From the NCBI GenBank assembly GCA_025774845.1, contig JALGZP010000002.1:348-64347 (forward strand): 64,000 bases of DNA, in the 5' to 3' direction. The DNA is from a bacterium. GTDB taxonomy: Bacteria; Arandabacterota; Arandabacteria; Arandabacterales; Arandabacteraceae. The translations under genes were made by a program, and so were the position numbers. Below, piece after piece: positions 16,361 to 33,376 of the stretch (the stretch's first letter is position 1; the number at the start of each line of letters is the position of its first letter). The notes below the pieces were generated by a model. The model saw only the letters and a list, made by a program, of their open reading frames with translations. It was not told the origin of the DNA and searched no databases.

Positions 16361-16492
16361 CTATGCAGTTGGCTCGGAGACCTTCGCGGCCTTTGCCTTT
16401 GCCTTGATCTTCTTCTTTTTGCGAGGACGGGTGTTACCCGAGCTCTTCTTCCAGATCTTACCCTTCCGTGTCCTTCGATCTCCTCTTCCCAT
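16361..16492 (-). CDS. 30S ribosomal protein THX (bTHX), 43 aa, below the track length cut-off
   Basis: Hand translation gives MGRGDRRTRKGKIWKKSSGNTRPRKKKKIKAKAKAAKVSEPTA. This closely parallels the Thermus Thx sequence as I remember it ([25 protein letters not shown]). GGGAGG lies 8 nt upstream of the ATG. Overlaps the 3' end of the upstream gene by 35 nt in another frame. Confidence 0.7.
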   Translation of the reverse strand: MGRGDRRTRKGKIWKKSSGNTRPRKKKKIKAKAKAAKVSEPTA

Positions 16493-17750
16493 CTTTGATA
16501 CCTCCCATATAGATACAGTCCTCTATTTCGCCATACCCGCGGACGATGTCATCGGCAAAAGCGATGCAGGTCGGAGCACCGCAGCATCCGCAGTCGATCC
16601 TGGGCAGCGCATTGTATATTGTATCCTTCTGTTTCTTCTTTTCAATCGCTGTGGCCAGGTCGCTGGCAAGGGGCCGAAGCGGCCTTGGGGCCAGCTTCTT
16701 TTCAAGGGAATAATGTCCCTTGTTATACTTCTCTATAACTTCATCTCTGTCAACCGGAACCTTACCACCATACTTCCTGAGCAGGTGCAGAGTGCTGCTG
16801 CGTGCGACGTACATGTTCTCAACGACAAGCGATCCACCGATGCAACCACCCAGACACGAGGAGAGTTCTACGAATTCCACATCTCTGAGTTTGGAGTTCT
16901 CGATATCGTCAAGGATCTTTGTAACATCACTCATACCGGAAACGGCGATCGAATGCTCCGCACCTATCAGCCTGGTCATCTCCCCCAACATGGACCAGCC
17001 CGCACCGAACTTGAAGTCCCGGGCAACATCCTCGTCAATCTCTTCATTCTCGAGGTCGGCGACCGCTGAGAAGAGAGGAGCAAAGACATCGACGATCGAC
17101 ACGGCACCGTCTATCCAGGATTTCGCCTTTTCGGCAGGCTGTTTGATTGAGACGATCTTTGCGGGGCAGGTCGTGATATAGACTACACCGATCCCCCCGA
17201 CATCCACACCAAGCTCACGTGCCAGATTCTGCTTAACATCTCTGGCAGCTATCTCCCTGGGAACATCTACAGGCACAACCCTGCCGGTCAGATCCGGGTA
17301 CTTCACCTGAATCAACCTCACGACCGCAGGGCAGAACGAGGAGAGAACGGGGAGCCTGCCCCTGTGTTGGGCAATGGACTCATCGATCGCAATGCTCACC
17401 TCTTGACAAGCGAGGGATAGATCACACACATAGTCGAATCCGATTCGCTTGAGCCCCATTATCACTTTTCTCGGATCGACCTCGGGTCTGAACTGCGAAT
17501 AGAGCACCGGTGACGGTAGTGCTACCTTGTACTTGAAATCCAGAGACTGCGCAAAGGGATCCGTAAGCGGCACGATCGCACCCGAGGGACAGACATTTAT
17601 ACACTCACCGCAATCCACGCACAGCTCTTCAATCACCCTCGCCTTGCCGTCACGCATCCTTATCGCAGCTGTGGGACAGCTGCGCATACACTTCATTCTC
17701 CCGTCGCATCTTTCGTCAACGAACTCTATGGGGTGATAGTATTTTCCCAT
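16458..17750 (-). CDS. [FeFe]-hydrogenase large-subunit homologue of the putative sensory type (no PAS domain)
   Basis: 430 aa. N-terminal 2x[4Fe-4S] region (CMRSCP, CVDCGECINVCP). H-cluster-like motifs are SSFCPAV (L1, proton-relay Cys replaced by Phe), TTCPAK (L2) and SSCLGGCIGG (L3, Ser where catalytic enzymes have Met). C-terminal CGCCGAPTC-x16-C. Confidence 0.8.
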   Translation of the reverse strand: MGKYYHPIEFVDERCDGRMKCMRSCPTAAIRMRDGKARVIEELCVDCGECINVCPSGAIVPLTDPFAQSLDFKYKVALPSPVLYSQFRPEVDPRKVIMGLKRIGFDYVCDLSLACQEVSIAIDESIAQHRGRLPVLSSFCPAVVRLIQVKYPDLTGRVVPVDVPREIAARDVKQNLARELGVDVGGIGVVYITTCPAKIVSIKQPAEKAKSWIDGAVSIVDVFAPLFSAVADLENEEIDEDVARDFKFGAGWSMLGEMTRLIGAEHSIAVSGMSDVTKILDDIENSKLRDVEFVELSSCLGGCIGGSLVVENMYVARSSTLHLLRKYGGKVPVDRDEVIEKYNKGHYSLEKKLAPRPLRPLASDLATAIEKKKQKDTIYNALPRIDCGCCGAPTCIAFADDIVRGYGEIEDCIYMGGIKDGKRRSKDTEG

Positions 17751-17752
17751 CG

Positions 17753-18184
17753 CTAATCCGTGTGAATCGTTATGGCCAGTTTGGTGCCTTTCCCCACCTC
17801 GGATTCGATCTCGAAGTCATCTGCATTACGCTTAATGTTCGGAAGCCCCATTCCCGCCCCGAAACCCATCTCCCTCATTTCAGCGGTCGCGGTCGAATAG
17901 CCCTCCTCCATCGCCCGTTCGATACACTCGATGCCCGGGCCTTCATCCTCTAGCTCGATTCGTATGCTTGTCGGGGTGGCCGACAATCTCACCACCGCCC
18001 TCTTCGCATACATGACGATATTCATCTCGGCTTCATAGGATGCAATGGCCGCCCGTCTGATCTTCACCGGATCGAAACCGATTTCCTTGAGAATCGATTT
18101 TATCTCCGTAGAGACCGTACCCGCGTTGGTGAAGTCCTTGCCAAGGACTGAAAATTCTTGGAAGAACAGAACTTCATCGCTCAT
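17753..18184 (-). CDS. RsbW/SpoIIAB-like anti-sigma-type ATPase (HATPase_c) protein
   Basis: 143 aa. EDEGPGI...GFGAGMGLPNIKRNAD...GKGTKLAITI are GHKL ATPase G-boxes. ATGA overlap with the upstream gene. Confidence 0.75.
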   Translation of the reverse strand: MSDEVLFFQEFSVLGKDFTNAGTVSTEIKSILKEIGFDPVKIRRAAIASYEAEMNIVMYAKRAVVRLSATPTSIRIELEDEGPGIECIERAMEEGYSTATAEMREMGFGAGMGLPNIKRNADDFEIESEVGKGTKLAITIHTD

Positions 18185-18540
18185 TTTCCACCAATCTGGC
18201 TTCCGGATTTCATGCCCTTTTCATAGAGGCGGCCGCATGCTTCGAACATCGAAAGCGGACATGACAACAGCGGAATACCCTTCTGTCCGGCCAGCTTCAC
18301 CGCCTCCTCGTCGGGCGTCTTCCCGCGTACATAGACTATCGCTCGCACCTCTGCTACATGAGAGGTTATGACGGATTGGACGTTCCTTAAGCCCGTGAGA
18401 AGAATCCCGCCAGGTGCGGCGAACGCAAGCACATCGCTCATGAGATCGGCGCCGCACACTTCCTCGTAGTCGTGATCGAGCATATCTTCTCCCGTAATCA
18501 CCTCACACTCAATTACCTGGCATATTTCCTTTAGTGTCAA
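18181..18540 (-). CDS. DRTGG-domain-like small protein
   Basis: Track ORF is 18181..18606. I place the start at TTG 18540..18538, which sits 5 nt after GCAGGAGG and just past the upstream stop. Product (M)TLKEICQVIECEVITGED...GGILLTGL...VYVRGK resembles the small DRTGG proteins of NuoEF/[FeFe]-hydrogenase operons. Confidence 0.6.
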   Translation of the reverse strand: MTLKEICQVIECEVITGEDMLDHDYEEVCGADLMSDVLAFAAPGGILLTGLRNVQSVITSHVAEVRAIVYVRGKTPDEEAVKLAGQKGIPLLSCPLSMFEACGRLYEKGMKSGSQIGGK

Positions 18541-18556: not shown

Positions 18557-20875
18557 TCATACTCCCAGATACTTGCATATCGTACCAGCCGCGCCAACGC
18601 CCTCAACGAATGCTTCTTCGGCTATGACCGGAGACCGGCCAAAACCGCAGGCGAAGATGCCGGAAGCACTTGTGGCGAATGGGGCGGCCAGCGAATCACC
18701 CGTCGCTATGAACTTAAGATCGTCAAGCCTGACTCCGGCCACGCGCGCCAGCTCTTCGTGGTCCGAGCCGTGGAGATGCCCGACTGAAAGCACCACGGCG
18801 TCAAACTCGTTGGAAACACTCTTCCCATCCGTCGAGTCGACGGCTACCTTGAGAGCCCCTTCCGTAGTAATCCGTGGCTCACCCGTGATCTCGATGAAGT
18901 TTACCCCGAGGTCGGCGGCATCCGTGTAGAGATCCTCCTCGAAGCCAAAAACCCTGATCCCTCTGTGGAACACGGTTACCTCTGCGCCGGGATTGTCCTC
19001 TTTGAGTCTGAGCACGTTGGCCAGGGCTTGCTTGCAGCAGTACCTGCTGCAGTAGGGGTGTTCGGCGCTGCGTGCACCTACACACTGAATCATCGCCACC
19101 CGCTTCCAGGAAGCCCGGCCTCCGGTGATACGCTGGCGGAACTCACTCTGGGTCAGGATTGCCTCGTGCTCTCCATGGTGGTACCCCGCAGGCACATAGG
19201 CGTTCGCGCCGGTTGCCATCAGCATCGCACCTGCTTCGAGCGTCTTCTCACCCTGGGGGGTGGAAACCTTGACCGTGATCTTTCCATCCGACGTTTCTAC
19301 GGCCGCTACGGTGCTTTCCTTAAGAACCGTTGCAACCGGGTTCGTCTCTATGGCTTTCACAAAACCGTCAACCACATCGACCTCTGTGCCTTCGGCGATG
19401 GCGGCGAAAGTCAGAGGCTTGCCTATTTCCGCCGACTTCTCAACCACTGTCACTTCTACACCACGCCGCACGAGCTCACTCGCGGCGGCGAGACCCGAGG
19501 TGCCTCCGCCGACCACAACCACACTCGCGGGTCTCTTCTCCCTCCCGGCCTCCGGCAGCTGCGAGGCAGAGGAGCCCTCCGTGACCGAGGCCAATTTCGC
19601 CTTCAGGTCGCCGCTCAGGCCTTCACCACCCACAATCGTGACGCTTCCCCGGGGGAGACCCGAGACCGTCTCAAAGAGCTCTTCATGACTGCCTTTGTGA
19701 CATCCCACCACGACTATCGATGATGTCTCATCCAGATTCGCCCTCATCGCGGCTCTGCCGTCCTTGTAACAAAGGAACGGGTGGACGATACAAAGCCCTT
19801 CGACATCCGACCGGTTCACACCTGCAAGCTCGAGACCGTATTCACAGGCATACACGAACGTCTTGCCCTTGTGCCGGGGTGACTGCTGAGACGGCACAGC
19901 CCCTGAGGAGTCGAGTGATCTGGTTGATGCCGCCAATGCATCGATCACACTCCGGTAAACCGGAGCCGGTCCGCAAACGGCACCACCAAATGATACGGCT
20001 TCGGTCTCGGCGATGAGACTTCCTATGCTGCGTTCAATGAACCCGAACTTGTTGACCCTGATCCCCGCCGTCCTGGCATAGCGCTTGAAGCCGCCAAGGG
20101 CATGGACACCAACGGCAAGCACGACGAGATCGAATTTCGCTTCGGCGGTTTCACCCGCGGCTGAGTATCCAACACTCAGGGTCCCATCCCCGGGATCCTC
20201 CTTGACCGAGGTCACCTCTCCCTCGATGAACTCGATCCAGTTCTCGCCCTGAAGCTCCGAAAGATCGAGCTCACTCCCTTTACCCACTGGTCTTAAGCCC
20301 CTGTGGAATACATGGACCTCCACATCGCCGGCAAGCTTCCTGGCATGTCTGGCCTGTGAAAACGTACGCGAGCAGCAGTCCGATGAGCAGAAGTTCGCGC
20401 CAATGCCCTCTTCCCTCGAACCGACACACTGAATGAAAGCGATTCGTTTCGGTATGTCCCCGTCAAAGGGTCTTACCAGGAGTCCGCCGAATGGACCCGT
20501 GGGACTCACCAGACGCTCGAATTCGAAACTGGTTATCACGTTCGCAGCGTCCGCGTAGCCGAGCTCCTTCTTCCCGTCGGGGTTAAAGACCTGACCGTCG
20601 GACGTGAATACTATGGCGTCTGCTTCGAGCTCGACCCTGCTTGCCGCTTCATCGTAGACGATCGCCTTGGGATCACACTCTGCAAGACACAGCCCGCAGC
20701 CGATACAGCGCCGGCAGCTCAGGCACCGTGCTGCTTCCTTAAGAACCATCTCCTCCGAAAGCCCGAGTTCAACCTCTTCGAAGTTGAGATTCCTCTCTTC
20801 AAGCGGCAGTTCGGGCATCCTATTCCGCTCGGAAGGAATGTCTTTGAACTCGGGTATGAACTTCGGTTTCTTCAT
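18557..20875 (-). CDS. Large HdrA-related flavoprotein: N-terminal Fe-S module plus two HdrA-like modules
   Basis: 772 aa. CLSCRRCIGCGLCLAEC, then two CxGxR...C..CC signatures (IQCVGSREEGIGANFCSSDCC and IQCVGARSAEHPYCSRYCC) and one GGGTSG FAD site. Confidence 0.8.
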   Translation of the reverse strand: MKKPKFIPEFKDIPSERNRMPELPLEERNLNFEEVELGLSEEMVLKEAARCLSCRRCIGCGLCLAECDPKAIVYDEAASRVELEADAIVFTSDGQVFNPDGKKELGYADAANVITSFEFERLVSPTGPFGGLLVRPFDGDIPKRIAFIQCVGSREEGIGANFCSSDCCSRTFSQARHARKLAGDVEVHVFHRGLRPVGKGSELDLSELQGENWIEFIEGEVTSVKEDPGDGTLSVGYSAAGETAEAKFDLVVLAVGVHALGGFKRYARTAGIRVNKFGFIERSIGSLIAETEAVSFGGAVCGPAPVYRSVIDALAASTRSLDSSGAVPSQQSPRHKGKTFVYACEYGLELAGVNRSDVEGLCIVHPFLCYKDGRAAMRANLDETSSIVVVGCHKGSHEELFETVSGLPRGSVTIVGGEGLSGDLKAKLASVTEGSSASQLPEAGREKRPASVVVVGGGTSGLAAASELVRRGVEVTVVEKSAEIGKPLTFAAIAEGTEVDVVDGFVKAIETNPVATVLKESTVAAVETSDGKITVKVSTPQGEKTLEAGAMLMATGANAYVPAGYHHGEHEAILTQSEFRQRITGGRASWKRVAMIQCVGARSAEHPYCSRYCCKQALANVLRLKEDNPGAEVTVFHRGIRVFGFEEDLYTDAADLGVNFIEITGEPRITTEGALKVAVDSTDGKSVSNEFDAVVLSVGHLHGSDHEELARVAGVRLDDLKFIATGDSLAAPFATSASGIFACGFGRSPVIAEEAFVEGVGAAGTICKYLGV

Positions 20876-20877
20876 AT

Positions 20878-22566
20878 CTAACTCAGGTACTCCTTCATTG
20901 AATCGGCTGCTATGTGGCCCGCGCGTATTGCCTCAATCACCGTGGCAGGCCCGGTCACACCATCCCCCCCCGCATATATGCCGGGACGGTTGGTGGCCAT
21001 AGTCCTTTCGTCAACCACAAACGAGTTCCAACGCGATATCTCGAAGCCATGCTCGTCCGGGAGGAACGTGATATCCGGCTGCTGGCTGATGGCCGGAATG
21101 ATGAGATCGGCCTCGACGGTGAATTCCGAACCCTCGACAGGAATCGGCCGTCTTCGGCCGCTTGCATCGAGTTTGCCCAGTCTCATCTTGGTGCATTCCA
21201 TGCCGGCTACCTTTCCGCCTTTACCCAGGATCTTGACCGGTGCGGCAAGGTAGTGAATCTTGACGCCCTCCTCCTCCGCTCCCTCGACCTCCCAGTCGTT
21301 TGCAGGCATCTCCCTTCGCGATCTCCTGTAGAGTATGGTGACCTCCTCACAACCCAACCTGAGCGCCGTCCTTGCCGAATCGATCGCCGAGTTTCCGCCG
21401 CCTATGACTATCACCTTGTTACCCGGTCTTGTCTTGTCTCCGAGATTCACATCCCGGAGGAACTTTATACAGTCAAGAAAACCTTCGTAGTCGTCTTCCC
21501 CGGGCACCCTGAGTTTAAGACCTTCATATGCACCCACGCCCAGGAAGATTCCCTTAAAGCCCTGCTTGAAGAGGTCGTCGACCGTGAACTCCTTCGTGAG
21601 AGGGGTGTTGAGTTTTATCTCGACACCAAGATCTTCGATGTATGCAACATCACTCAAGAGGATGTCCCTGGGCAGCCTGTATTCGGGAATTCCGAGGTGC
21701 ATCATGCCGCCGGGCACGGGAGCGGCCTCAAAAACGGTTACCCGATAACCTTCAAGCGCGAGATCGTGTGCAACCGTAAGACCCGCGGGGCCGGCCCCCA
21801 CCACTGCCACTTTGGTCTTAAGGTCTTTCTTGGGCTTCGGCGGTACGAACTTGCCGGCCTTTCGCTGTGCGACCTCATAATCGCTTACAAAACGCTTGAG
21901 AGCATCAATCGCAATCGCCTCGTCCTGACGCCCCCTGTTACAGACCGTCTCACACGGATGAGGACAGATCCGGCCGCAAACTGCTGGCAGCGGATTCCTG
22001 TCACGAATAACTCTTATTGCTTCTTCGTACCGGCCACCGGCGATCAGTCCCACGTACCTTCTTATGTCTATGTGAACGGGGCATCGCTCCTGGCAGGCGG
22101 GTGTTTCCTTCTCGATATTGTACTCGCCCCCGAAAGTACGCGGCCCCGCAAAGTCTATCGCGGTCCTGAGCATCAAACCCTCGTTATAGCTATCATATGG
22201 CTTTATCGGACAGACAAGCAGGCACTCGGCGCAGGCATTACAGGCCTCGGTTACCCTGCCCGGCTGGTGAGTTAGACTGACTTTGATCCTGTCGTCTTTC
22301 TTACGCACGCTCCCGAGGGTCGAGTTCGTGAGTACCCTGATCCCCGGGTGAGCAAGAACCTCATTCACCAACTTGGATGAAAGACAGACCGATGGGAAGC
22401 CCTCGGGAACCACCCGTTCCTGCTTGAGCAAGAGCCCGCCCAGGAACGGCGACTCCTCAACAAGCGCAACCCTGGCGCCCGATCCCGCAACCTCGAGTGC
22501 TGCCGTAAGCCCGGTGATACCGCCACCGACAACAACTACTTCCCTCGGGGAAGACTTATCACTCAT
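20878..22566 (-). CDS. GltD/NfnB-like NAD(P)H oxidoreductase subunit with an N-terminal HdrA-like FAD fragment
   Basis: Start taken at MSDKSS (ATGAGTGA overlap with the mvhD stop). VVVGGGITG...ACNACAECLLVCP is followed by CGRICPHPCETVCNRG and VAVVGAGPAGL...PGGMMHLGIPEYRLPRD...VIGGGNSAIDSAR, typical of GltD/NfnB. Confidence 0.8.
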   Translation of the reverse strand: MSDKSSPREVVVVGGGITGLTAALEVAGSGARVALVEESPFLGGLLLKQERVVPEGFPSVCLSSKLVNEVLAHPGIRVLTNSTLGSVRKKDDRIKVSLTHQPGRVTEACNACAECLLVCPIKPYDSYNEGLMLRTAIDFAGPRTFGGEYNIEKETPACQERCPVHIDIRRYVGLIAGGRYEEAIRVIRDRNPLPAVCGRICPHPCETVCNRGRQDEAIAIDALKRFVSDYEVAQRKAGKFVPPKPKKDLKTKVAVVGAGPAGLTVAHDLALEGYRVTVFEAAPVPGGMMHLGIPEYRLPRDILLSDVAYIEDLGVEIKLNTPLTKEFTVDDLFKQGFKGIFLGVGAYEGLKLRVPGEDDYEGFLDCIKFLRDVNLGDKTRPGNKVIVIGGGNSAIDSARTALRLGCEEVTILYRRSRREMPANDWEVEGAEEEGVKIHYLAAPVKILGKGGKVAGMECTKMRLGKLDASGRRRPIPVEGSEFTVEADLIIPAISQQPDITFLPDEHGFEISRWNSFVVDERTMATNRPGIYAGGDGVTGPATVIEAIRAGHIAADSMKEYLS

Positions 22567-23347
22567 ATGCAGTCTCACCGTTACCTGAAAGTTCCCACAT
22601 CGGGGTGTTTCCCACGACGGAGTGTATCTCAGCAAAACCCATCTTCTTTAGATCCGCCATCTGTCTTACGAGAATCTTCGGTGCCGTGTCCATCTTGGTG
22701 GCCAGCTCTTTTACCGAATGGGGTTTACCCTTGAGCCGTTCCAGTATCTCTCTCAGTCTGAATTCATCCATCGCTATCTCGTCAAAGAGCCTACCTATCT
22801 CATGGGCCGTGAACTTCTCCCCGTAGAGGTTACCCTTCTCGGTGAATTCCACGATCTTGCCCGTGACCCATCTGATCTTACGGCCGCCGAGCGCCTTCCC
22901 CGCAGCCTGAAGCTTGACCTCAAGATCGTTCTTATCGATGCCCTCGGGCTTACCCAGGGGACCCAGCTCGGTGATATCCTTCTGGAACTCACCTGCGAAC
23001 TCGACGAACTTGTTGCCCTCAGCGCTCGACATCATACGCATCCGGAGTCTGGCAGGATCTATACCCGCCATCCTGAGGACCCGCTTGGTGATTTCCATCT
23101 TGCCCTCGGCATGGAGGTTACCCGAGGTATAATGGCACTCTCCACGCTTGCAGGCGCCCACGAACACTCCGTCCGCACCCGCCAGCAATGACTCGATGAC
23201 CATCACAGGATCCACCCTTCCCGAACACATCACTCTCACAACCCTGATGTCGGGTGCATATTGAAACCTCGCTACCCCGGCGAGGTCAGCCGCACTGTAT
23301 GCTCACCAGTTACAGCAGAAAGCTATGATGTGCGGTTTGAAACTCAT
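22559..23347 (-). CDS. mvhD: MvhD-like iron-sulfur subunit with in-frame UGA (candidate Sec in CCNW-U)
   Basis: Track ORF starts at 23239. Extending upstream in frame gives [47 protein letters not shown], with TGA at 23303..23305. The ATG at 23347 lies 2 nt after the upstream stop. Without the extension the conserved N-terminal Cys block of MvhD is missing. Confidence 0.8.
23267..23285 (-). promoter_or_regulatory. Candidate bacterial SECIS hairpin for UGA 23303
   Basis: mRNA folds as CCUCGC-CGGGGUA-GCGAGG. The 6-bp stem starts 18 nt after the UGA and loop Gs lie at +25 to +28. Confidence 0.6.
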
Positions 23348-23349
23348 AC

Positions 23350-25038
23350 TCACTCCTTTTCGAAAGCTGCCCGTATCTGGGCCGTCAATTGCTCGTCGCT
23401 ATAATGCTTCATTGTAATTGCCCCCCGGTAGCAGGTCGCTCCGCACGTTCCGCAACCCTTGCAGGCGACATCGATTGTCCGTGCTTTCTCGCCGGCCTCG
23501 GTCTCAATCAGCTCAATCGCTCCGTATGGACAGAGCGCCACACAGAGTCCGCACCCCCTGCAGTCTTCCTCGGTTATGAATGAGACAATCGGTTCAACCT
23601 TGACCCGACCGCTTTCGAGGAACGTGGATGCACGCGACGCGGCACCGAGTGCCTGCTCGATGCACTCCTGGATGCCGGCGGGCCACCGTGCGGTTCCGCA
23701 GACAAAGATCCCGTCGGTCGCAAAGTCAAGCGGTCTGAGCTTCACGTGGGCCTCGAGGAAGAAGCCGTATTCATCGAGCGGGACCTTGAGCATCCTGGAA
23801 AGAGCTTCATTCGTACCGGCCGGTACAAGCGGGGTCTCAAGCACAAGGAGATCATACGGGAGCACCATCTCTCTCCCAAGTATGGCACTCGTCACCTTGA
23901 CCTCGCCCTTCTCGGCAAGCGGCGGTGCGTCGTCTGGGTAATTCACGAACCTGACACCGGCTTCCTTGGCATCCATCAGCAGGCTCTCGTTCTTGATCCC
24001 GTAACACATGAGATCCCGGTAGAGCATGGTCACATCAGATTTCCACTTCTTGCGAATGAGGATCGCATTCTTGATTGCCGTCATACAGCATATACGCGAG
24101 CAGTAAAGCCTGTCCCGCATTCTCGACCCGACGCAACCGATCATGACAACGTTCTTAGGACGGGTCCCGGGCTTTGCGAGCAGGCCTTCAAGTTGAAGTT
24201 GGGTTACAGCCCGCTTTGAATCAAAGCCGTACTGTCCTTCCGGAACCAGTACTTCCGCTCCTGTCGCCAGGATTATGATACCTGCCGTCACAGGTTCCTT
24301 AAGCGATGTCACGGATACGATGTAGTTACCTATGTAACCCTTGACCTCGGTCACTTCCGATGACTTGAGAACCTTGATGCGCCGGGCTTTTCCTACACGC
24401 CCCACCAGACCCTTCACATACTCCGCCGCCGGTTTCTCATGCGGGTAGATCCAGTTGACCGCCCTTAAGAGCCCACCGAGTTGTTTCTGTTTCTCAACCA
24501 GAACCACCTCAAACCCTCGTCTCGCAAGCTCGAGCGAAGCGGTCATGCCCGAGATACCTCCACCGATCACAAGCGCGCGTTTCGTCACATCCCCGATGAT
24601 GGGTTCCATCGGCTCAAGATACGCCGCCCGTGCTACACCCATCCTTATGAGGTCCTTCGCCTTCTCCGTAGCCGCCTCGCGATCTTCCTTATGCACCCAC
24701 GAGCAGTGCTCCCTGATATTGACGAATTCAAAATAGTAGGGATTAAGCCCGGCATCTTCGCATGCCGCACGGAATGTTGGCTCATGTGTCCTCGGTGTAC
24801 AGGCGGCGACAACGACCCGTTCAAGTTTGTTATCGGTAATGGCCTGACGGATGTCATTGATCCCGGCTTCCGAACACGAGTAAAGATTCTCTCTCACAAA
24901 GATCACATTTGGAAGACCCGACGCGTAATCGGCCACGGTTTTGGCATCCAGGAAGCCCGCAATATTCGTCCCGCAGTTACAGACGAAAACCCCTATACGC
25001 GGGCCGTTCACCGTGTCTTTCCTGCCTTGCTTACTCAT
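23350..25038 (-). CDS. HdrA paralogue with intact N-terminal Cys domain and C-terminal 2x[4Fe-4S] ferredoxin, lacking the FPTxDCSxC block
   Basis: 562 aa. RIGVFVCNCGTNIAG, VVVAACTPRTHEP, NIREHCSWVH, VIGGGISG, IGCVGSRMRDRLYCSRICCM, and CRGCGLCVALCP / CKGCGTCGATC. ATGA overlap with the upstream gene. Confidence 0.85.
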   Translation of the reverse strand: MSKQGRKDTVNGPRIGVFVCNCGTNIAGFLDAKTVADYASGLPNVIFVRENLYSCSEAGINDIRQAITDNKLERVVVAACTPRTHEPTFRAACEDAGLNPYYFEFVNIREHCSWVHKEDREAATEKAKDLIRMGVARAAYLEPMEPIIGDVTKRALVIGGGISGMTASLELARRGFEVVLVEKQKQLGGLLRAVNWIYPHEKPAAEYVKGLVGRVGKARRIKVLKSSEVTEVKGYIGNYIVSVTSLKEPVTAGIIILATGAEVLVPEGQYGFDSKRAVTQLQLEGLLAKPGTRPKNVVMIGCVGSRMRDRLYCSRICCMTAIKNAILIRKKWKSDVTMLYRDLMCYGIKNESLLMDAKEAGVRFVNYPDDAPPLAEKGEVKVTSAILGREMVLPYDLLVLETPLVPAGTNEALSRMLKVPLDEYGFFLEAHVKLRPLDFATDGIFVCGTARWPAGIQECIEQALGAASRASTFLESGRVKVEPIVSFITEEDCRGCGLCVALCPYGAIELIETEAGEKARTIDVACKGCGTCGATCYRGAITMKHYSDEQLTAQIRAAFEKE

Positions 25039-26330
25039 ACGCCGACTTCCTCATATATCCTGGCCGCCGCCCGCTCTGCGGCGGCACTGGCCTGGCTTAC
25101 CGCCTCGGGTATATCACACGGCCCCTTACAGAACCCACAGGCGAAGATGCCTGCCACACTGGTATCCGCCGGTTGCTCGGGGGGACACAGGATGAAACCG
25201 TACTTGTCCGCCTTGATCCGGAGAAGTTTCGCGAGCCCAAGCGCTCCCCTTGACGGCATCGCCGCGGTTGCCAGCACGACCATTTCGGTCTCAAGCGATT
25301 CGACTTTTCTCTTTCTCGTGTCCTCGTACCACACGATGGGATTCCCGTTGGGACCATCCTCGATCTCGGCAACCCTTCCCCTTATGTACTGGACCCCGTA
25401 CTCTTCCGCCGCCCGCTTCTCGTACTTCTGGAACCCCTTGCCCACGTTCCGGAGGTCCGTGTGGAAGACGTAGGAAACCGATTCGGGATCGTGTTCCCTC
25501 GCCAGCATGGCATCCTTGATCGAATACATACAGCAAACGCTCGAGCAATACGCGCAGTTGTTGAGATCTCTCGAGCCCACACACTGTACGTAAGCCACCT
25601 TCTTGGCCAGCTTGCCGTCGGAGGGTCTGTGGAGATGCCCTCCGGTGGGACCGGTCGCATTTATGAGTCTCTCATACTGTAAGCCGGTTATTACATTCTG
25701 GATCTTGCCAAAACCGTAGTGGGTAAGCGCCGTCGGGTCGAAGATATCAAGCCCGGTCGCGACTATTACCGCATCGACGTCGAGAGCAAGGATCTTGTCC
25801 TTCATCTCGTAGTCTATCGCGCCCTTGTCGCAGATCTTCTTACACACGCCACACTTGCCCTTGGTGAAGTATATGCAGTGGTCGCTGTCTATGGTCATTA
25901 CCGCGGGAATGCCCTGTGAGAAGTAAAGGTATATCGCTTTCCGTTTCCTCAAGTCCATGTCGAAGGCATCGGGTGCTTTTCCCGGGCACTTGCTCACACA
26001 GTCTCCACAGGCATTACAAATTTCTTCATCGACGTAGCGGGTGCGCTTTCTCACCTTGAGTGAGAACTTGCCGCCTTTCCGCTTAAGCCCCTCTATCTCA
26101 CTGTACGCCAGCAGTTCGACCCTGGGATGCCGACCGGCATCCAGCATTTTAGGCGCGAGAATTCATATGGAGCAGTCATTGGTGGGAAAAGTCTTATCAA
26201 GCTGTGCCATCACCCCGCCTATGCTGGGTTTCTTCTCGATCAGATAGACTTGAATACCCATCTCACCGAGGTCTAGCGCAGCCTGAATACCGGCAATCCC
26301 ACCGCCGATCACTGCAACCTTACCTTCCAC
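25035..26330 (-). CDS. hdrA: HdrA core (FAD domain plus inserted ferredoxin) with in-frame UGA (candidate Sec in FPTNDCSI-U)
   Basis: Track ORFs 26163..26372 and 25035..26147 share one frame and are separated only by TGA at 26163..26165. Read-through gives [15 protein letters not shown]...[29 protein letters not shown]...[12 protein letters not shown]...[22 protein letters not shown]. Start placed at GTG 26330, 8 nt after GGGAGG; the ATG at 26372 is an alternative. Confidence 0.85.
26122..26144 (-). promoter_or_regulatory. Candidate bacterial SECIS hairpin for UGA 26163
   Basis: mRNA folds as CUGGAUGCC-GGUC-GGCAUC(C)CAG. A 7-bp perfect core extends to 9 bp with one bulged C. It starts 19 nt after the UGA and has a GGUC tetraloop. 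Confidence 0.7.
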
Positions 26331-27462
26331 GCTTCTTACCTCCCAATGATCCGGCCACAAGCGTGACCGCATCGGTTATCTCTATTTGACCTGAGCAATC
26401 CTCATCCCGCAGGGCGCATCTCAGGTGGATATTGCACTTCGGACAAGCGGTAACAAGCACCTGCGCGCCTGTTGAGATGGCTTCATCAAGTCTCTCGACC
26501 TGGATCTTCTTGTTGACCCTCGAGCAGCTCACCCAGTTGCTTGAACCACAGCAAAGTGCATCCTTACCCCTTCGCGTCATTTCCGCCAGCTCGAGATCGG
26601 GTATGCTCTTGAGCACGTTCCGAGGTTCCTCGATAATGTCATCAGACTTGGCGAGCCTGCAGGGATCGTGGTAGGTCACTTTGGTTTTGCGTGAATTCAA
26701 TCGTATGTCACCCATCTTTTCACTCAGAAGATCAAGGAGGAAGACCACCTCGAGCCCCATACCCCTTACGAACTCCGAATAGACGTGTTTGAACATGTGA
26801 TAGCATTCCGGACAGGAGAACACGACACGTTTTGCACCCGTCTTCTTTATAGCTGCGACATTACGTTTAGCAAGTTCCTTTACGAGATCGCCTCCCCCGG
26901 TCCAGTACTCATCATGACCGCAGCACACCTCACCTTCGCTGACGGCAGGTATGATGCCCAACTGATTGAGCAGACGTACGCTTGAGTTCCCGATCCCCCT
27001 GCCGTCGAAACCGATTTCCTTGAACACGACATCAAGAAAAGGCAGGCAGCCTCCGAAGTAATACGTGCTTGATCTCGACCGTGTCTTCGCGCCACGCCCC
27101 AGCCAGGAAGCCTGTCGTCTGAACCCTGGCATACGTTGCAGGTCGATCAGGGCTGCGAGTGTGTCCGCATGGGTGCAGACACCGCTCTCACCAACCTGTC
27201 TTGCGCGCTCCCTCATCGATCTCATGAAACCCGTGAAATCAACCGTGGACGGACACCGGAGATCACAGGTGCCGCAGGTGAGACAGCTCCACATTTCCGG
27301 GTCGTGCACACTTTCATCCTCACTGAAGAGGAGCGCCTTCTCCACGGTCAGCCGCGGTGAGTAGGCGTCGCGATGCCTGGAAACGGGACAACTGCCCGTA
27401 CAGATACCGCACTCGAGGCAGAGATATGCCTTTGTCTTATCTACGGCCGCGCGAAGCGACAC
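26320..27462 (-). CDS. HdrD-like (fused HdrC/HdrB) Fe-S protein with two CCG domains
   Basis: [12 protein letters not shown] and [12 protein letters not shown] (HdrC-like), then VCCGHDEYW and [11 protein letters not shown] motifs. Start placed at GTG 27462 after AGGAGGAGG; the track start at 27510 is a TTG. Confidence 0.8.
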
Positions 27463-27880
27463 GTTTCCTCCTCCTGGTTGTTTTCTTGAACTGCTTGAGG
27501 AAGTTCCCAAGCACCCTCTTGTATTCCTTGCCCCCGCTCTCCGATATCATGTGAAAGCCGAGGCGTTTCCCCGGTACTCCGGCAATCTCAAGTATCTCCT
27601 GCGTCTCCTTTACTATCTCTCCGCATCTCTGGCTTCCGTTGTAGTAATGACAGTCTCCCTCCTCACAACCCAGTACCAGTACTCCGTCGAAACCCTTGGC
27701 AAACAGCTTCAGCAGGAAAGACACCTTGACCAGACCTGTACATTTGACCGGTATGACAGTCGGACCCGCGTCACAGGTGAAGCCATCCTTCGCGGCATTC
27801 TCCATCGCTGTAAGCGGATGCCATTTGCACGGCACTATTGCCACCTTCGTTTTGATGCTATATACCCCCTGCCGCTTCAA
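27437..27880 (-). CDS. Second MvhD-like Fe-S protein (all-Cys version)
   Basis: 147 aa. VPVKCTGLVKVSFLLKLFAKGFDGVLVLGCEEGDCHYYNGS parallels VMCSGRVDP...GACKRGECHYTSGN of the neighbouring MvhD. Start codon uncertain (the track start is a TTG with no clear RBS). Confidence 0.7.
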   Translation of the reverse strand: MKRQGVYSIKTKVAIVPCKWHPLTAMENAAKDGFTCDAGPTVIPVKCTGLVKVSFLLKLFAKGFDGVLVLGCEEGDCHYYNGSQRCGEIVKETQEILEIAGVPGKRLGFHMISESGGKEYKRVLGNFLKQFKKTTRRRKRVASRGRR

Positions 27881-29612
27881 TAGTCGTATCGATCAGACGG
27901 GCCGTCATATCGGCGTGCGAAAGCGCGCCCGAAGGGCAAACTGAGACACACACTCCGCAACCCACACACTGAATCGGAATCACCTCTGCCCGCTTCAAGC
28001 CGTCTTCGTCAACCACGAGCTCGATGGCGCCGTGCCGGCACACCTCTTCACAACGGCCGCACCCCCTGCACAGGTCCCGGTCGACAGTGGTCGTACGCGC
28101 AATACGCTCTACCTTGCCGAGACTGATGAGGTCGAATGCCCGCGAGGCGGCGCCGTAACCCTGTACGATCGACTCGGTGATCGTCGACGGCCAGTGCGCA
28201 CTCCCCGCAACGAAAACACCTCTCGGAGCATACTCCTCAGGCCTCACCTTAAGCCTCGGCTCCACCAGGAAGCCGTAGCTGTCAGTCGGTATCTTGAACA
28301 TCCGGGCGAGTGATGTGTTCGTCGCCGGGGGCAGCATCGGCACCGCAAGCACAATGCGGTCGAACGGTATGTGGGCTTCCATCTCGGATATCTGGTCGTA
28401 GACCTCAACCGTGGTGTCTCCGAGGACGGGCGGCTTCTCCGGTGAGTACCGGATTATGTCGACACCCATGTCCCTCGCCCGGTCAAGATCACCGGCATAA
28501 CCTGCAAAGCCCCGCGACAGTATCGTCACCTGCGAAGCCGGGAACTTCTGCTTGATCAGGATCGCGTTCTTGATTGAGGCCGTACAACATATACGTGAGC
28601 AATAAGGTCTTTCATCGTTCCGCGATCCCACACACTGGATCATCACGACGTCTGAACCGGGATTGTCCCCACGCTTGAGTATGGCTTCGAACTCAACCTG
28701 GGTAACCACCTGGTCGCGTTCACCGTAGCCAAACAGACCCTTCGGCGTAAGCAGGTCCGCCCCGGTGGCAACAATTATCACACCTGCTTCGATCTTTTCG
28801 CCGCCGGTGAGCTCAATCTCGAAATTCCCGACATGACCGCGGACCGAAACCGGTTCCACCCCGGTTTTCACCTCGACCGCGCCCGCATCGATGTTCCGTG
28901 ACTGGCCGTTGAGAAACTCGGATGCTTCTATGTAGGACGGGAAGACGATGTTGAGTTGTTTTAGCAGTCCCCCGACACTTTCATCCTTCTCTACTATGAT
29001 TGTCTTTACACCTCTCGAAGCCATGGCCGTGGCCGCCGACATACCCGCTATACCACCACCCAGCACAACGCACACCGGTTTGATATCGGCTTCTACCTTT
29101 TCCATCGGACTCGTGCCGGCTACACGGGCAACAGCCATATTTATGAGCCCCAGTGCGCCCGATGTCGTTGCCTTCTTTGCTCCCGGCGGGGCCGAGCACA
29201 ACCTGCTTATGTCCGCAAACTCCACCAGTGAAGGATCGATACCCGACTGCGCCAGAATGTTCCTGAAGAACTTGCCGTACAACCGCTCACTGCTGCCGGC
29301 GACAACTACCCGTGACAGTCCGCGTTTGACAATCAGAGCGCCGATCGCATCTATCTTCCCGATCGTGCAGGGGTAGTCCTGGACCTTGACGAGGGCCACC
29401 TCGGGATTTGCCGCCACCTGTTTCTCGAGTGAGGTGATATCGAGCACACGTGAGAGATCGCTCTCACACTGCGATATTACGACGGCGACACCTGTACCCT
29501 TTGCCCGGACCGGCCGCGTTTGGGATTTCTTTGCAGGGCGTTTCTTGGCGGGTCGTTTCCGGACCCGCGTCGCCTTCTTCGACTTCTTCTTTGTCCGTGT
29601 CTTTCCCGGCAT
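27858..29612 (-). CDS. HdrA paralogue with degenerate (Cys-poor) N-domain and a Lys/Arg-rich N-terminal tail
   Basis: Start taken at ATG 29612 (GAGGAG upstream). MPGKTRTKKKSKKATRVRKRPAKKRPAKKSQTRPVRAK, then VLGGGIAGMSAA, IQCVGSRNDERPYCSRICCT, and CRGCGRCEEVCRHG / CVGCGVCVSVCP. Confidence 0.8.
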   Translation of the reverse strand: MPGKTRTKKKSKKATRVRKRPAKKRPAKKSQTRPVRAKGTGVAVVISQCESDLSRVLDITSLEKQVAANPEVALVKVQDYPCTIGKIDAIGALIVKRGLSRVVVAGSSERLYGKFFRNILAQSGIDPSLVEFADISRLCSAPPGAKKATTSGALGLINMAVARVAGTSPMEKVEADIKPVCVVLGGGIAGMSAATAMASRGVKTIIVEKDESVGGLLKQLNIVFPSYIEASEFLNGQSRNIDAGAVEVKTGVEPVSVRGHVGNFEIELTGGEKIEAGVIIVATGADLLTPKGLFGYGERDQVVTQVEFEAILKRGDNPGSDVVMIQCVGSRNDERPYCSRICCTASIKNAILIKQKFPASQVTILSRGFAGYAGDLDRARDMGVDIIRYSPEKPPVLGDTTVEVYDQISEMEAHIPFDRIVLAVPMLPPATNTSLARMFKIPTDSYGFLVEPRLKVRPEEYAPRGVFVAGSAHWPSTITESIVQGYGAASRAFDLISLGKVERIARTTTVDRDLCRGCGRCEEVCRHGAIELVVDEDGLKRAEVIPIQCVGCGVCVSVCPSGALSHADMTARLIDTTIEAAGGI

Positions 29613-29629
29613 GGTCTCCTCAAACAAAC

Positions 29630-30277
29630 TCAGGGACTTCCGTAATGCGTCTCACACACAATACACCTGAAAGTGTCCTTCGAGCCTCCAACGCTGTGAA
29701 GACTCCTTCGCGCAAATACTTTCCTAAGGTCAAACGTTCTGGCCGGACAGATCGTGGTACAGGTACCGCATCCCACGCAGACATTCGATTCCTGGCCGAA
29801 GGGTGGTACCACCTCACTCTCAGGACCTCGATTGGCGAATCCGATCGCCCCGACCCCGACGATCTCCTTGCAGGCCCTGACACACATCCCACACAGATAG
29901 CACTCTTCCTCACCCTTCGGAAACGGATTGGTTTTGACTCCGAGCTCCTTTGCCTTGTGCCTTATGATTTCGATGTCGGGGCACCGGGCGAGAAGCAGGG
30001 TTATGATCATCCTGCGGATTTCTGTTACCAGCTTTGTCTCCGTCCTCACAACCATTCCGTCCGCCACCGGTGTCACACACGAAGCCATCGTTCTTGTCCG
30101 CCCCCCCTGCTTGACCTCGACAACGCACAGCCGGCACGACCCGATCGGTGTCAGGGCTTCATGGTAACAAAGTGTCGGGATCTCGATCCCCATCTCCTTC
30201 GCTACCTCGAGGATGGTCCGGCCCTTTTCGGCCTTCCGGTTCCTGCCGTCGATCCTGATGCTCAATGTGTCGCTCAT
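29630..30277 (-). CDS. NuoG/HydA-N-terminal-like [2Fe-2S] plus 2x[4Fe-4S] ferredoxin subunit with no catalytic domain
   Basis: 215 aa. IRIDG...CYHEALTPIGSCRLCVVEV...ASC (plant-type 2Fe-2S), then CYLCGMCVRAC and CVGCGTCTTICP. Confidence 0.8.
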   Translation of the reverse strand: MSDTLSIRIDGRNRKAEKGRTILEVAKEMGIEIPTLCYHEALTPIGSCRLCVVEVKQGGRTRTMASCVTPVADGMVVRTETKLVTEIRRMIITLLLARCPDIEIIRHKAKELGVKTNPFPKGEEECYLCGMCVRACKEIVGVGAIGFANRGPESEVVPPFGQESNVCVGCGTCTTICPARTFDLRKVFARRSLHSVGGSKDTFRCIVCETHYGSP

Positions 30278-33010: not shown

Positions 33011-33376
33011 CTAGTGGAGGCTCTCGGCGCCAGCGCCGAGAACAAACTTGCCGACCGGTTTCCCCCCGAGAACATGTTCCGCGTAAATCTGTTTTGCCTT
33101 GGCTCCATCGAGATCGCAGTACTTCACCGGAGGCGCTCCGGGGAGTTCGACCGTCATCATCGGCTCCCGCGAGCAAAGCCCGGCACACCCTGTAGTCTTA
33201 ATCGTGACACCCGATTTCCCGAGTTCTTCTGAAGCTGAGAGAACAGCTTCAAGCACACCCTCGGATCCGGATGCTATACCACACGTACCCATATGGACTA
33301 TGACCAACCTGGATTTCTTGCGGTTCTTCAGGTCACGATAGTGGGACTGCAGCTTCTCAGCACTGAGTTTCTGCAT
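33011..33376 (-). CDS. Thioredoxin-like [2Fe-2S] ferredoxin (HndB-like)
   Basis: 121 aa. VHMGTCGIASG...TTGCAGLCSREP. Confidence 0.75.
   Translation of the reverse strand: MQKLSAEKLQSHYRDLKNRKKSRLVIVHMGTCGIASGSEGVLEAVLSASEELGKSGVTIKTTGCAGLCSREPMMTVELPGAPPVKYCDLDGAKAKQIYAEHVLGGKPVGKFVLGAGAESLH

What the first reader, a model, noticed from the sequence alone, without database searches (positions are those of the whole stretch)
16458..18540. Sensory-type [FeFe]-hydrogenase homologue with Cx2Cx4Cx16C tail, paired with an RsbW-like ATPase and a DRTGG protein
The 430-aa protein keeps the four H-cluster Cys and the L2 Lys (SSFCPAV, TTCPAK, SSCLGGCIGG). It replaces the proton-relay Cys of TSCCP with Phe and the L3 Met with Ser. 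As far as I recall, putative sensory hydrogenases also change both of these positions. The C-terminus reads C-G-C-C-G-A-P-T-C-x16-C, that is Cx2Cx4Cx16C. I remember this as the extra-cluster motif of one putative sensory subclass, but that needs checking. There is no PAS domain. Signal output may instead run through the adjacent GHKL ATPase and DRTGG proteins and the REC-NuoE subunit. This would mean H2 or redox sensing that controls an Hdr-type complex rather than a hydrogenase.
Basis: partly seen in the sequence, partly recalled or inferred. Interest (0 to 1): 0.65.

Follow-up and report, generated by a model that had tools for sequence, protein, structure and literature searches.

The report
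Putative hydrogen-sensor module on Hdr operon
The three genes encode a divergent member of the known "putative sensory" group D [FeFe]-hydrogenases together with its likely signalling partners (a SpoIIAB-like kinase and a DRTGG protein), here attached to an NADH/heterodisulfide-reductase-type operon that contains no hydrogenase.

Summary
Window 16458-18540 (minus strand) holds three tightly packed genes: DRTGG protein, 143-aa GHKL ATPase and a 430-aa [FeFe]-hydrogenase homologue. The hydrogenase homologue belongs to group D (M2e), the PAS-less "putative sensory" class. It is 39% identical over its full length to TamHydS, the only characterised member, and it groups with TamHydS against group A/B/C references in 200/200 bootstraps. 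The ATPase models as a SpoIIAB/RsbW-type serine kinase.

The trio keeps the same order in every one of the 39 related genomes whose contig is long enough. Its parts occur fused in all three pairings elsewhere, so it is one module. Its neighbours differ by lineage:
- Hdr only (Eisenbacteria, as here).
- Hdr plus [NiFe]-hydrogenase (Aminicenantes).
- Formate dehydrogenase (Zixibacteria).
- [FeFe] HydABC (Firmicutes, from the literature).

Most of these contexts include NuoE/NuoF. New details: this subclade has lost one Cys of the distal N-terminal cluster (Arg instead) and the group D proton-relay Glu. A second DRTGG gene and a [2Fe-2S] ferredoxin sit at the operon's 5' end. Whether the H-cluster is really made (hydEFG) could not be tested. 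Verdict: a variant of a known kind, of moderate interest.

The parts
16458..17750 (-). Group D (M2e) [FeFe]-hydrogenase homologue ('HydS'), 430 aa
   Evidence: Pfam Fe_hyd_lg_C + PF04060 + Fer4 dicluster, no PAS. 39% identity and E 8e-103 to TamHydS. NJ clade with TamHydS in 200/200 bootstraps. AF2 pLDDT 88.3; Foldseek top 50 hits are all [FeFe]-hydrogenases.
17568..17720 (-). N-terminal ferredoxin-like F-domain (residues 11-61); 7 of the usual 8 Cys, second Cys replaced by Arg18
   Evidence: Read from the sequence. The column is Cys in 112-113 of the ~144 family rows and Arg/His/Lys/other in 23 sequences that cluster around the window protein.
16833..17525 (-). H-domain (residues 76-306) with C140, C195, K198, C299, C303; F139 at CpI-C299, T193 at M353, S297 at M497, M258 at TamHydS-E252
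16515..16592 (-). C-terminal Cx2Cx4Cx16C motif (C387, C390, C395, C412)
   Evidence: PF04060 hit. The four Cys are conserved in 141-143 of 144 family members. The motif is defined in PMC8163306.
17753..18184 (-). 143-aa single-domain GHKL ATPase, SpoIIAB/RsbW-type Ser/Thr kinase fold
   Evidence: Pfam HATPase_c_2 1.3e-8. N-box E51/N55, G1 DEGPG and G2 GFGAGMG are read from the sequence and invariant in 38 homologues. AF2 pLDDT 89.7; Foldseek best hits are SpoIIAB (E 1e-9, TM 0.78-0.85), then RsbW and UsfX.
18181..18540 (-). DRTGG1 protein, 119 aa from the TTG at 18540 (the mechanical ORF runs to 18606)
   Evidence: Pfam DRTGG 5.8e-6. Start and RBS read. Conserved motifs sDLMSDVLA / lllTGL / yVRGKkP across 43 copies.
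33412..33750 (-). DRTGG2 protein, 112 aa, at the 5' end of the same operon
   Evidence: tblastn 36% to the DRTGG2 of Aminicenantes locus L030. Pfam DRTGG 5.6e-5 and Hpr_kinase_N 1.5e-4. It is the paralogue type found downstream of HydS, or fused to its C-terminus, elsewhere.
33011..33376 (-). Small thioredoxin-like [2Fe-2S] ferredoxin, 121 aa
   Evidence: Pfam 2Fe-2S_thioredx 6.4e-4, below the curated cut-off. The same kind of gene lies next to HydS in R. albus.
32100..32981 (-). REC-NuoE fusion (BfuC/HydC-like)
   Evidence: Pfam Response_reg + 2Fe-2S_thioredx. Fusion family of at least 796 proteins. D54/T82/K104 are mostly conserved.
30284..32113 (-). NuoF-like FMN/NADH subunit (BfuB/HydB-like)
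   Evidence: Pfam Complex1_51K, NADH_4Fe-4S, Fer4.
29630..30277 (-). [2Fe-2S] + 2x[4Fe-4S] protein: the HydA/BfuA N-terminal module without an H-domain
   Evidence: Pfam Fer2_4 + Fer4_7. 30-35% identity to residues 2-199 of group A HydA.
18557..29627 (-). Hdr-type block: HdrA-like genes (27858-29627, 25035-26147, 23350-25038, 18557-20875), MvhD (27437-27880), HdrD-like CCG protein (26320-27510), MvhD-HTH (22559-23239), HdrA(N)-GltD/NfnB fusion (20878-22635)
   Evidence: Pfam. The same order is found in Eisenbacteria-type loci L001-L009 and L012.

Best explanation
[quoted passage not shown] HydS carries an H-cluster. When it binds H2, or is reduced by the low-potential pool that H2 equilibrates with, its N-terminal clusters and its conformation change. 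This change passes by direct protein contact to a bound SpoIIAB/RsbW-type serine kinase and to DRTGG adaptor proteins (DRTGG1 here, DRTGG2 at the operon's 5' end). The kinase/DRTGG pair then changes the activity or the expression of the co-encoded NuoEF(Bfu)-Hdr electron-bifurcating complex, so that this NADH/ferredoxin-linked electron sink follows the ambient H2 or redox poise. In this subclade the enzyme seems tuned for switching rather than turnover. Both known proton relays are gone (C299 is Phe; TamHydS-E252 is Met, with a Glu one position earlier). The distal cluster has only three Cys ligands. Shown here: family membership, intact H-cluster ligands, the kinase fold with ATP motifs, conserved synteny and the fusions. 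Inferred: H2 as the signal, complex formation, phosphorylation, and the Hdr complex as the target.
For: Group D membership. The H-cluster Cys are invariant in 143-144 of 144 relatives, and K198 and P81 are invariant in the near family. TamHydS binds H2 with raised affinity and low turnover and changes conformation on H2 (PMC8163306 and PMC13104023). The trio has the same order in all 39 species-level loci with enough sequence, across Eisenbacteria, Aminicenantes, Zixibacteria and Calditrichia. Genes overlap or abut. Fusions found: DRTGG1-HydS (P0123, P0199), HydS-DRTGG2 (P0134, P0176, P0180, P0146, P0167), HATPase-HydS (P0181) and DRTGG1-HATPase (L036, L020, L025). The kinase fold is SpoIIAB/RsbW with intact N/G1/G2 boxes. 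The module is embedded in or abuts NuoEF/Hdr/hydrogenase operons. There is a precedent for a sensory hydrogenase governing a non-hydrogenase electron sink: R. albus hydS lies in one cluster with adhE (PMC11837493). Loss of E252 goes with loss of the cluster Cys: 22 of 23 versus 24 of 114.
Against: There is no evidence that the [2Fe] subcluster is made. No hydE/F/G lies in the 64-kb window or, by a crude motif screen, in the flanks of the related loci. In TamHydS, E252V/D variants almost lose H2 oxidation and respond little to H2 (PMC10407848). This clade has Met or Ile at that position, so H2 responsiveness is uncertain. The alignment there lies in a low-confidence loop (pLDDT 58-75). The C-terminal cluster of TamHydS does not respond to H2. 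No STAS partner, sigma factor or DNA-binding output belongs to the module. No hydrogenase was found in the window for an H2 signal to regulate. The sensor is transcribed with, and at the end of, the operon it would control.
Confidence: 0.5

Rival explanations
1. Redox-pool sensor, not an H2 sensor. The protein reads the reduction state of ferredoxin or of the NuoEF/Bfu complex through its F-clusters. The H-domain serves only as a redox-responsive scaffold. The kinase/DRTGG pair tunes the bifurcating complex accordingly.
For: The module sits beside enzymes with different third substrates: Hdr only, [NiFe]-hydrogenase, formate dehydrogenase, and [FeFe] HydA in Firmicutes. NuoE/NuoF is the most frequent neighbour. 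The group D Glu252 needed for H2 oxidation in TamHydS is absent and the distal cluster is altered. No hydrogenase lies in this window.
Against: All four H-cluster Cys, K198 and P81 are strictly conserved in this clade, which is hard to explain without the [2Fe] site. In at least 15 Aminicenantes loci a [NiFe]-hydrogenase lies within 10 kb of the module. In Parabacteroides the module stands alone without NuoEF.
Confidence: 0.2
2. Catalytic subunit. The group D protein is the working, slow hydrogenase of the complex. It feeds or withdraws electrons via MvhD/HdrA in place of the missing MvhAG or HydA H-domain.
For: TamHydS catalyses reversible H+/H2 conversion. The operon has two MvhD-like adaptors and a HydA N-terminal module but no hydrogenase. 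The gene is co-transcribed with the enzyme genes.
Against: It is always accompanied by, and sometimes fused to, a kinase and DRTGG proteins. The same module stands alone in Parabacteroides and sits beside a true [NiFe]-hydrogenase in Aminicenantes. Both proton relays are missing and one cluster ligand is lost. The activity of TamHydS is low.
Confidence: 0.12
3. Narf-like Fe-S protein without the [2Fe] subcluster. It is a regulatory or scaffold protein that kept only the cubane.
For: No maturase genes were seen in the sequence available. Both proton relays are lost.
Against: It groups inside group D with an enzyme proven to bind the H-cluster. K358 and the pocket Pro are conserved. The available sequence is a 65-kb contig plus 10-kb flanks, far too little to call maturases absent. 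Some organisms make active [FeFe]-hydrogenases without HydEFG (PMC11216029).
Confidence: 0.1

Closest known systems
TamHydS, Thermoanaerobacter mathranii group D (M2e) putative sensory [FeFe]-hydrogenase
   Same: Collinear architecture: 2-cluster F-domain, H-domain and a Cx2Cx4Cx16C tail, with no PAS. 39% identity over 414 aa. C299 is not Cys, M353 is a hydroxyl residue, and E289 is kept. A histidine-kinase-like ATPase is the neighbour.
   Different: Arg replaces the second Cys of the first cluster motif. Met stands at E252, Ser at D265 and Leu at S249. C299 is Phe rather than Ala, and M497 is Ser rather than Leu. The host is a Candidatus Eisenbacteria-like bacterium. The gene sits at the 3' end of a NuoEF-Hdr operon, not upstream of [FeFe] HydABC. 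No PHP protein, second ATPase or AraC regulator is nearby.
Group C (M2f) sensory hydrogenases: TmHydS, Ruminococcus albus HydS, Thermoanaerobacterium HfsB
   Same: Same F-domain, H-domain and Cx2Cx4Cx16C tail. M497 is Ser as in TmHydS. They are linked to Ser/Thr phospho-signalling and to control of electron sinks: hydS clusters with adhE in R. albus.
   Different: Group C proteins have a C-terminal PAS domain, Gly at M353 and a SpoIIE (PP2C) phosphatase neighbour. The window protein has none of these. It is only 24-25% identical to R. albus and Monoglobus HydS and falls outside their clade.
SpoIIAB/RsbW partner-switching kinases
   Same: Single-domain ~145-aa GHKL fold with TM 0.78-0.85 to SpoIIAB. 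The N, G1 and G2 boxes are intact.
   Different: No STAS-domain antagonist and no sigma factor is encoded nearby. The constant partners are DRTGG proteins and a hydrogenase homologue. Sequence similarity is marginal (E 0.008).
Regulatory [NiFe]-hydrogenase HoxBC-HoxJ
   Same: By analogy only, from established knowledge and as compared in PMC8163306: a low-turnover hydrogenase coupled to a kinase so that H2 controls redox enzymes.
   Different: The metal site and fold are unrelated. HoxJ is a PAS histidine kinase that acts on a response regulator. Here the kinase is a SpoIIAB-type ATPase without a His-phosphotransfer domain.
Bfu (HydABC-type) complexes combined with HdrA modules, e.g. BamDEFGHI of class II benzoyl-CoA reductase
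   Same: NuoE-like, NuoF-like and HydA-N-terminal-like subunits are encoded together with HdrA, MvhD-like and CCG proteins.
   Different: No tungsten AOR-type or other catalytic third subunit was recognised. NuoE carries a REC domain. A group D sensor module is attached.

Membership tests
[FeFe]-hydrogenase group D (M2e subclass) | H-domain with the four H-cluster-binding Cys of motifs L1-L3 | tested here: met
   C140, C195, C299 and C303 align to CpI C300, C355, C499 and C503. Pfam Fe_hyd_lg_C 6.6e-27. Foldseek top 50 hits are all [FeFe]-hydrogenases.
[FeFe]-hydrogenase group D (M2e subclass) | [quoted passage not shown] | tested here: inconclusive
   The ferredoxin dicluster domain is present, but the first motif is CxxRxxCxxxC, giving 7 of 8 Cys. 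The cluster type ([3Fe-4S] or a non-Cys ligand) cannot be told from sequence. The same change occurs in 23 relatives.
[FeFe]-hydrogenase group D (M2e subclass) | C-terminal Cx2Cx4Cx16C motif and no PAS domain | tested here: met
   C387, C390, C395 and C412. The protein ends 18 residues later. No PAS hit in Pfam. The definition is in PMC8163306.
[FeFe]-hydrogenase group D (M2e subclass) | C299 (CpI) not Cys; M353 replaced by Ser/Thr | tested here: met
   F139 and T193. In the sampled group D-like sequences this column is never Cys, and M353 is Thr/Ser in 124 of 144.
[FeFe]-hydrogenase group D (M2e subclass) | Phylogenetic placement with characterised group D, apart from groups A, B and C | tested here: met
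   NJ tree on 320 columns and 154 sequences. The clade of the window protein, TamHydS and the P. distasonis protein excludes the A/B/C references in 200/200 bootstraps. Groups E-G were not included and no ML tree was made.
[FeFe]-hydrogenase group D (M2e subclass) | Group D proton pathway E252-E289-S249-D265 (a highly conserved functional trait, not a membership criterion) | tested here: not met
   Only E289 (E295 here) is kept. E252 is M258, with E257 one position earlier. S249 is L255 and D265 is S271. E252 is Glu in 95 of the ~144 group D-like sequences sampled. The loop is modelled with low confidence.
[FeFe]-hydrogenase group D (M2e subclass) | An assembled [2Fe]H subcluster (hydEFG in the genome, H2 reactivity) | not testable with these tools
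   Only a ~65-kb contig is available. No HydE/F/G lies in the window by NCBIfam scans. A crude motif screen of the related loci found none.
[FeFe]-hydrogenase group C (M2f) | C-terminal PAS domain; Gly at M353; SpoIIE phosphatase neighbour | tested here: not met
   No PAS. Thr stands at M353. No PP2C gene lies in the operon. It falls outside the R. albus/Monoglobus HydS clade.
SpoIIAB/RsbW anti-sigma serine kinases (for the 143-aa ATPase) | Single-domain GHKL fold with N, G1 and G2 ATP-binding boxes | tested here: met
   Foldseek to SpoIIAB: E 1e-9, TM 0.78-0.85 over the whole length. E51/N55, D80-x-G82-x-G84 and G107-F-G-A-G-M-G113 are invariant.
SpoIIAB/RsbW anti-sigma serine kinases (for the 143-aa ATPase) | Cognate STAS-domain antagonist and sigma factor | tested here: not met
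   No STAS or sigma-factor family was found in the operon proteins scanned. The constant partners are DRTGG proteins and HydS. It therefore may work like these kinases but is not a member of such a system.
Bfu/HydABC-type NADH-ferredoxin module (for the operon) | NuoE-like + NuoF-like core with a HydA-N-terminal-like Fe-S subunit | tested here: met
   Pfam on 32100-32981, 30284-32113 and 29630-30277. tblastn to the group A HydA N-terminus. Cofactor ligands were not checked residue by residue.

The most novel reading that the evidence does not exclude
DRTGG1, a SpoIIAB-like kinase, HydS and DRTGG2 form a dedicated, physically associated regulator of NuoEF/Bfu-type electron-bifurcating complexes, whatever their third substrate. 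The Eisenbacteria/Aminicenantes/Zixibacteria subclade has turned the hydrogenase into a near non-turnover H2 (or redox) switch. It did so by losing both proton relays (C299, E252) and one ligand of the distal cluster. In Eisenbacteria this switch gates an NADH/ferredoxin-linked Hdr complex in an operon that has no hydrogenase of its own.
Probability: 0.3. Interest if true: 0.7.

Novelty: new variant of a known kind. Interest (0 to 1): 0.5.

Why it matters
How group D [FeFe]-hydrogenases signal, and whether they are sensors at all, is an open question. As of 2026 only TamHydS has been characterised, and the redox state of its C-terminal cluster has been ruled out as the signal (PMC13104023). 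The conserved order and the three pairwise fusions found here name concrete partners: a SpoIIAB-type kinase and two DRTGG paralogues. That makes the question testable in vitro. The varied neighbours (Hdr, [NiFe]-hydrogenase, formate dehydrogenase, [FeFe] HydABC) suggest the module regulates bifurcating NADH/ferredoxin complexes in general, not only hydrogenases. The subclade that lacks both Glu252 and a cluster Cys is a natural experiment on what the H-cluster environment needs for sensing as against catalysis.

Tried and rejected
1. PAS or other output domain in the 430-aa protein: none found.
2. hydE/F/G: NCBIfam scans of 20 further window ORFs found none. The only radical-SAM gene (34412-35698) is a B12-binding type. 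A motif screen of all held loci also found none.
3. A second hydrogenase in the window: no other H-domain, [NiFe] subunit or FdhA was found.
4. I first guessed that the large gene after NuoF in the Zixibacteria loci was a full HydA. Pfam shows a molybdopterin formate-dehydrogenase-type protein instead.
5. I considered that a conserved Cys of DRTGG1 might supply the missing cluster ligand. I dropped the idea because the Cys is also present where HydS keeps all eight Cys (P0123).
6. Promoter and terminator scans gave counts no higher than shuffled sequence and no clear terminator after hydS.
7. Full-text searches for DRTGG together with hydrogenase, and for Aminicenantes together with sensory FeFe, returned nothing relevant. 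Two Eisenbacteria papers gave no information on [FeFe]-hydrogenases or maturases.
9. The TamHydS protein was rebuilt from a machine-read DNA table that contained frameshifts. A few residues may be wrong, but the motifs agree with the residue numbering used in the papers.
Full report
**What is there.** Three genes lie head to tail on the minus strand.
- DRTGG1, 18181-18540. It starts at a TTG behind a GGAGG ribosome-binding site, 16 nt after the stop of the preceding hdrA-like gene.
- A 143-aa GHKL ATPase, 17753-18184, which overlaps DRTGG1 by 4 nt.
- A 430-aa [FeFe]-hydrogenase homologue, 16458-17750, which starts 2 nt after the ATPase.

Pfam finds Fe_hyd_lg_C, the PF04060 Fe-S motif and a ferredoxin dicluster domain in the large protein, and no PAS domain. 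It finds HATPase_c_2 and DRTGG in the other two. The finding's coordinates are exact.

**The operon.** The trio ends a minus-strand operon of about 17 kb. In transcription order it encodes:
- DRTGG2 (33412-33750)
- a small [2Fe-2S] ferredoxin (33011-33376)
- REC-NuoE
- NuoF
- a HydA-N-terminal-like Fe-S protein without an H-domain
- several HdrA-like proteins, two MvhD-like proteins (one fused to an HTH), an HdrD-like CCG protein and an HdrA(N)-GltD fusion
- the trio itself.

The 64-kb window holds no other H-domain, no [NiFe] subunit, no formate dehydrogenase and no HydE/F/G. The closest relative of the large protein (92% identity) comes from a Candidatus Eisenbacteria MAG.

**Family of the 430-aa protein.** Land et al. 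2020 define the M2e subclass (group D) by four traits: two N-terminal cluster motifs, an H-domain, a C-terminal Cx2Cx4Cx16C motif and no PAS domain. In this subclass C299 is not conserved and M353 is replaced by Ser or Thr. The group C (M2f) relatives add a PAS domain.

I rebuilt the TamHydS protein from the coding sequence in a 2026 supplement. The window protein is 39% identical to it over 414 residues (E 8e-103) and collinear from the first Cys to the last. Its best match to any solved structure, all of group A or B, is E 5e-18.

Annotated references for groups A, B and C came from plasmid-collection records. A neighbour-joining tree of 154 sequences puts the window protein with TamHydS and a Parabacteroides group D protein. 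This clade excludes groups A, B and C in 200/200 bootstraps. The AlphaFold model is confident (pLDDT 88.3), and its 50 best PDB matches are all [FeFe]-hydrogenases. The family is large: 313 clusters at 50% identity with E of 1e-30 or better.

**How this protein differs from canonical group D.** The four H-cluster Cys are invariant across 144 relatives, and K198 (CpI K358) is kept here. Two other positions differ.
- The second Cys of the first ferredoxin motif is Arg18. By analogy with CpI this motif ligates the cluster distal to the H-cluster. The column is Cys in about 113 relatives but Arg, His, Lys or another residue in 23 sequences around the window protein.
- Glu252 of TamHydS is highly conserved in group D. 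Its E252V/D variants lose nearly all H2 oxidation (PMC10407848). It aligns with Met258 here. A Glu (E257) occupies the preceding, normally Gly, position in the Eisenbacteria clade only. D265 and S249 are also changed.

The two losses go together: 22 of 23 sequences without the Cys lack Glu252, against 24 of 114 with the Cys. Fisher's test gives 1e-11, but it is not corrected for phylogeny, and the sequences lie in several neighbouring clades. This loop is the least confident part of the model, so the assignment of E257 versus M258 is provisional. With C299 as Phe, the protein has no obvious proton relay next to the active site. I read that as tuning for switching rather than turnover. This reading is inference.

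**The partners.** The ATPase has intact N, G1 and G2 boxes, invariant in 38 homologues. Its model matches SpoIIAB best (E 1e-9, TM about 0.8 over the full length), then RsbW and UsfX. Sequence-level similarity is marginal.

Among one-genome-per-species contigs, 39 loci encode a relative of HydS. Every locus with enough sequence shows DRTGG1, ATPase and HydS in that order.

Gene fusions link all three pairs:
- DRTGG1-HydS
- HydS-DRTGG2
- ATPase-HydS
- DRTGG1-ATPase as a single ORF in Zixibacteria and Calditrichia.

N-terminal fusions carry the DRTGG1 paralogue and C-terminal fusions carry the DRTGG2 paralogue, which mirrors the gene order. This is good evidence for one physically interacting module. 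It does not show what the module does.

In Aminicenantes, Parabacteroides and a metagenomic relative the full module has six genes: DRTGG1, ATPase, HydS, DRTGG2, a PHP-domain protein and a second ATPase. The window lacks the PHP protein and the second ATPase, and its DRTGG2 sits at the other end of the operon.

**Genomic context across lineages.**
- Eisenbacteria type (window plus 9 loci): the trio follows the Hdr block. No hydrogenase was detected in the stretches held, up to 10 kb on either side.
- Aminicenantes: the module is inserted between HdrC/HdrB/HdrA(N) and NuoE/NuoF/Fd-HdrA(C)/MvhD/[NiFe] small and large subunits. In a second arrangement it lies just downstream of a [NiFe]-hydrogenase. 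At least 15 loci have a [NiFe] enzyme in view.
- Zixibacteria and Calditrichia: the module precedes NuoE, NuoF, a molybdopterin formate-dehydrogenase-type subunit and NfnAB-like genes.
- Parabacteroides: the module stands alone.
- Firmicutes: it lies upstream of [FeFe] HydABC.

The most frequent neighbour is the NuoE/NuoF (Bfu) core rather than a particular catalytic enzyme. A combination of Bfu and HdrA modules is known from the Bam complex.

**Mechanism and rivals.** The best-supported reading is an H2-responsive (or H2/redox-responsive) switch. It would act through a bound SpoIIAB-type kinase and DRTGG adaptors on the co-encoded NuoEF-Hdr complex. The R. albus hydS-adhE cluster is a precedent for a sensory hydrogenase governing a non-hydrogenase electron sink.

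The weak points are these:
- there is no proof that the [2Fe] site is made
- Glu252 is absent
- no known output domain belongs to the module
- no hydrogenase is in view for an H2 signal to regulate.

Three rivals remain open: a pure redox sensor, a slow catalytic subunit of the Hdr complex, and a Narf-like Fe-S protein.

The REC domain on NuoE is conserved. The fusion family has at least 796 proteins, and D54, T82 and K104 are mostly kept. Its phosphodonor is unknown, and the SpoIIAB-type ATPase is not an obvious one.

**Novelty.** The protein is a member of a known group. That a histidine-kinase-like ATPase neighbours group D genes was already noted. Three things appear not to be described in the searchable literature:
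- the DRTGG/kinase/HydS module with its fusions
- its attachment to hydrogenase-free Hdr operons and to formate-dehydrogenase operons
- the subclade that lacks both Glu252 and a cluster Cys.

I rate it a new variant of a known kind, of moderate interest.

Noticed in passing
window 32100-32981 (-): NuoE carries an N-terminal receiver (REC) domain. The fusion family has at least 796 members, and the best 120 all carry both domains. The phospho-acceptor Asp, Thr and Lys are mostly conserved, but the acidic pair is Glu-x. Homologues lie on the same contigs as HydS homologues.
   Followed up: partly
window 22559-23239 (-): An MvhD (FlpD) domain is fused to an HTH_11 DNA-binding domain inside the Hdr block. 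It could be a redox-responsive regulator of the operon.
   Followed up: no
window 20878-22635 (-) and 25035-26147 / 23350-25038 (-): HdrA appears in pieces. An N-terminal FAD part is fused to a GltD/NfnB-like protein (HdrL-like). A 370-aa middle/C-terminal part is followed by a 562-aa HdrA. Aminicenantes loci also split HdrA around the sensor module.
   Followed up: no
window 29630-30277 (-): A 215-aa [2Fe-2S] + 2x[4Fe-4S] protein is 30-35% identical to the N-terminus of group A HydA but has no H-domain. The operon looks like HydABC with the catalytic domain replaced by Hdr parts.
   Followed up: partly
window 33776-34309 (-): A Cys-rich 177-aa ORF directly upstream of DRTGG2 has no Pfam match. 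It may be the first gene of the operon.
   Followed up: no
loci L036 9172-9969, L020 47-860, L025 9174-9965: In Zixibacteria and Calditrichia, DRTGG1 and the SpoIIAB-like ATPase form one open reading frame. The module there precedes NuoEF, a formate-dehydrogenase-type molybdoenzyme and NfnAB-like genes.
   Followed up: yes
locus L049 5453-12955: A metagenomic relative (P0122, His at the missing-Cys position) has HdrC, HdrB, a lactate/malate dehydrogenase and HdrA(N) directly upstream of the six-gene module. This is another Hdr-linked context.
   Followed up: partly
window 9283-13959 (-), 14057-14686 (-), 37186-39048 (-): A 1558-aa secreted protein has what looks by eye like a papain-type protease N-terminus, repeated modules and a sorting-type C-terminus; it was never run through a family search. 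Neighbouring proteins have FlgD_ig or Por_Secre_tail (T9SS) domains (Pfam), consistent with an FCB-superphylum-like host.
   Followed up: no
window 5652-9067 (-) and 58359-61192 (+): An L-lactate/oxalate-formate-type MFS transporter lies next to acetyl-CoA synthetase. A sensor histidine kinase and a sigma-54 response regulator pair lie about 25 kb upstream of the operon's 5' end. No link to the operon was established.
   Followed up: no
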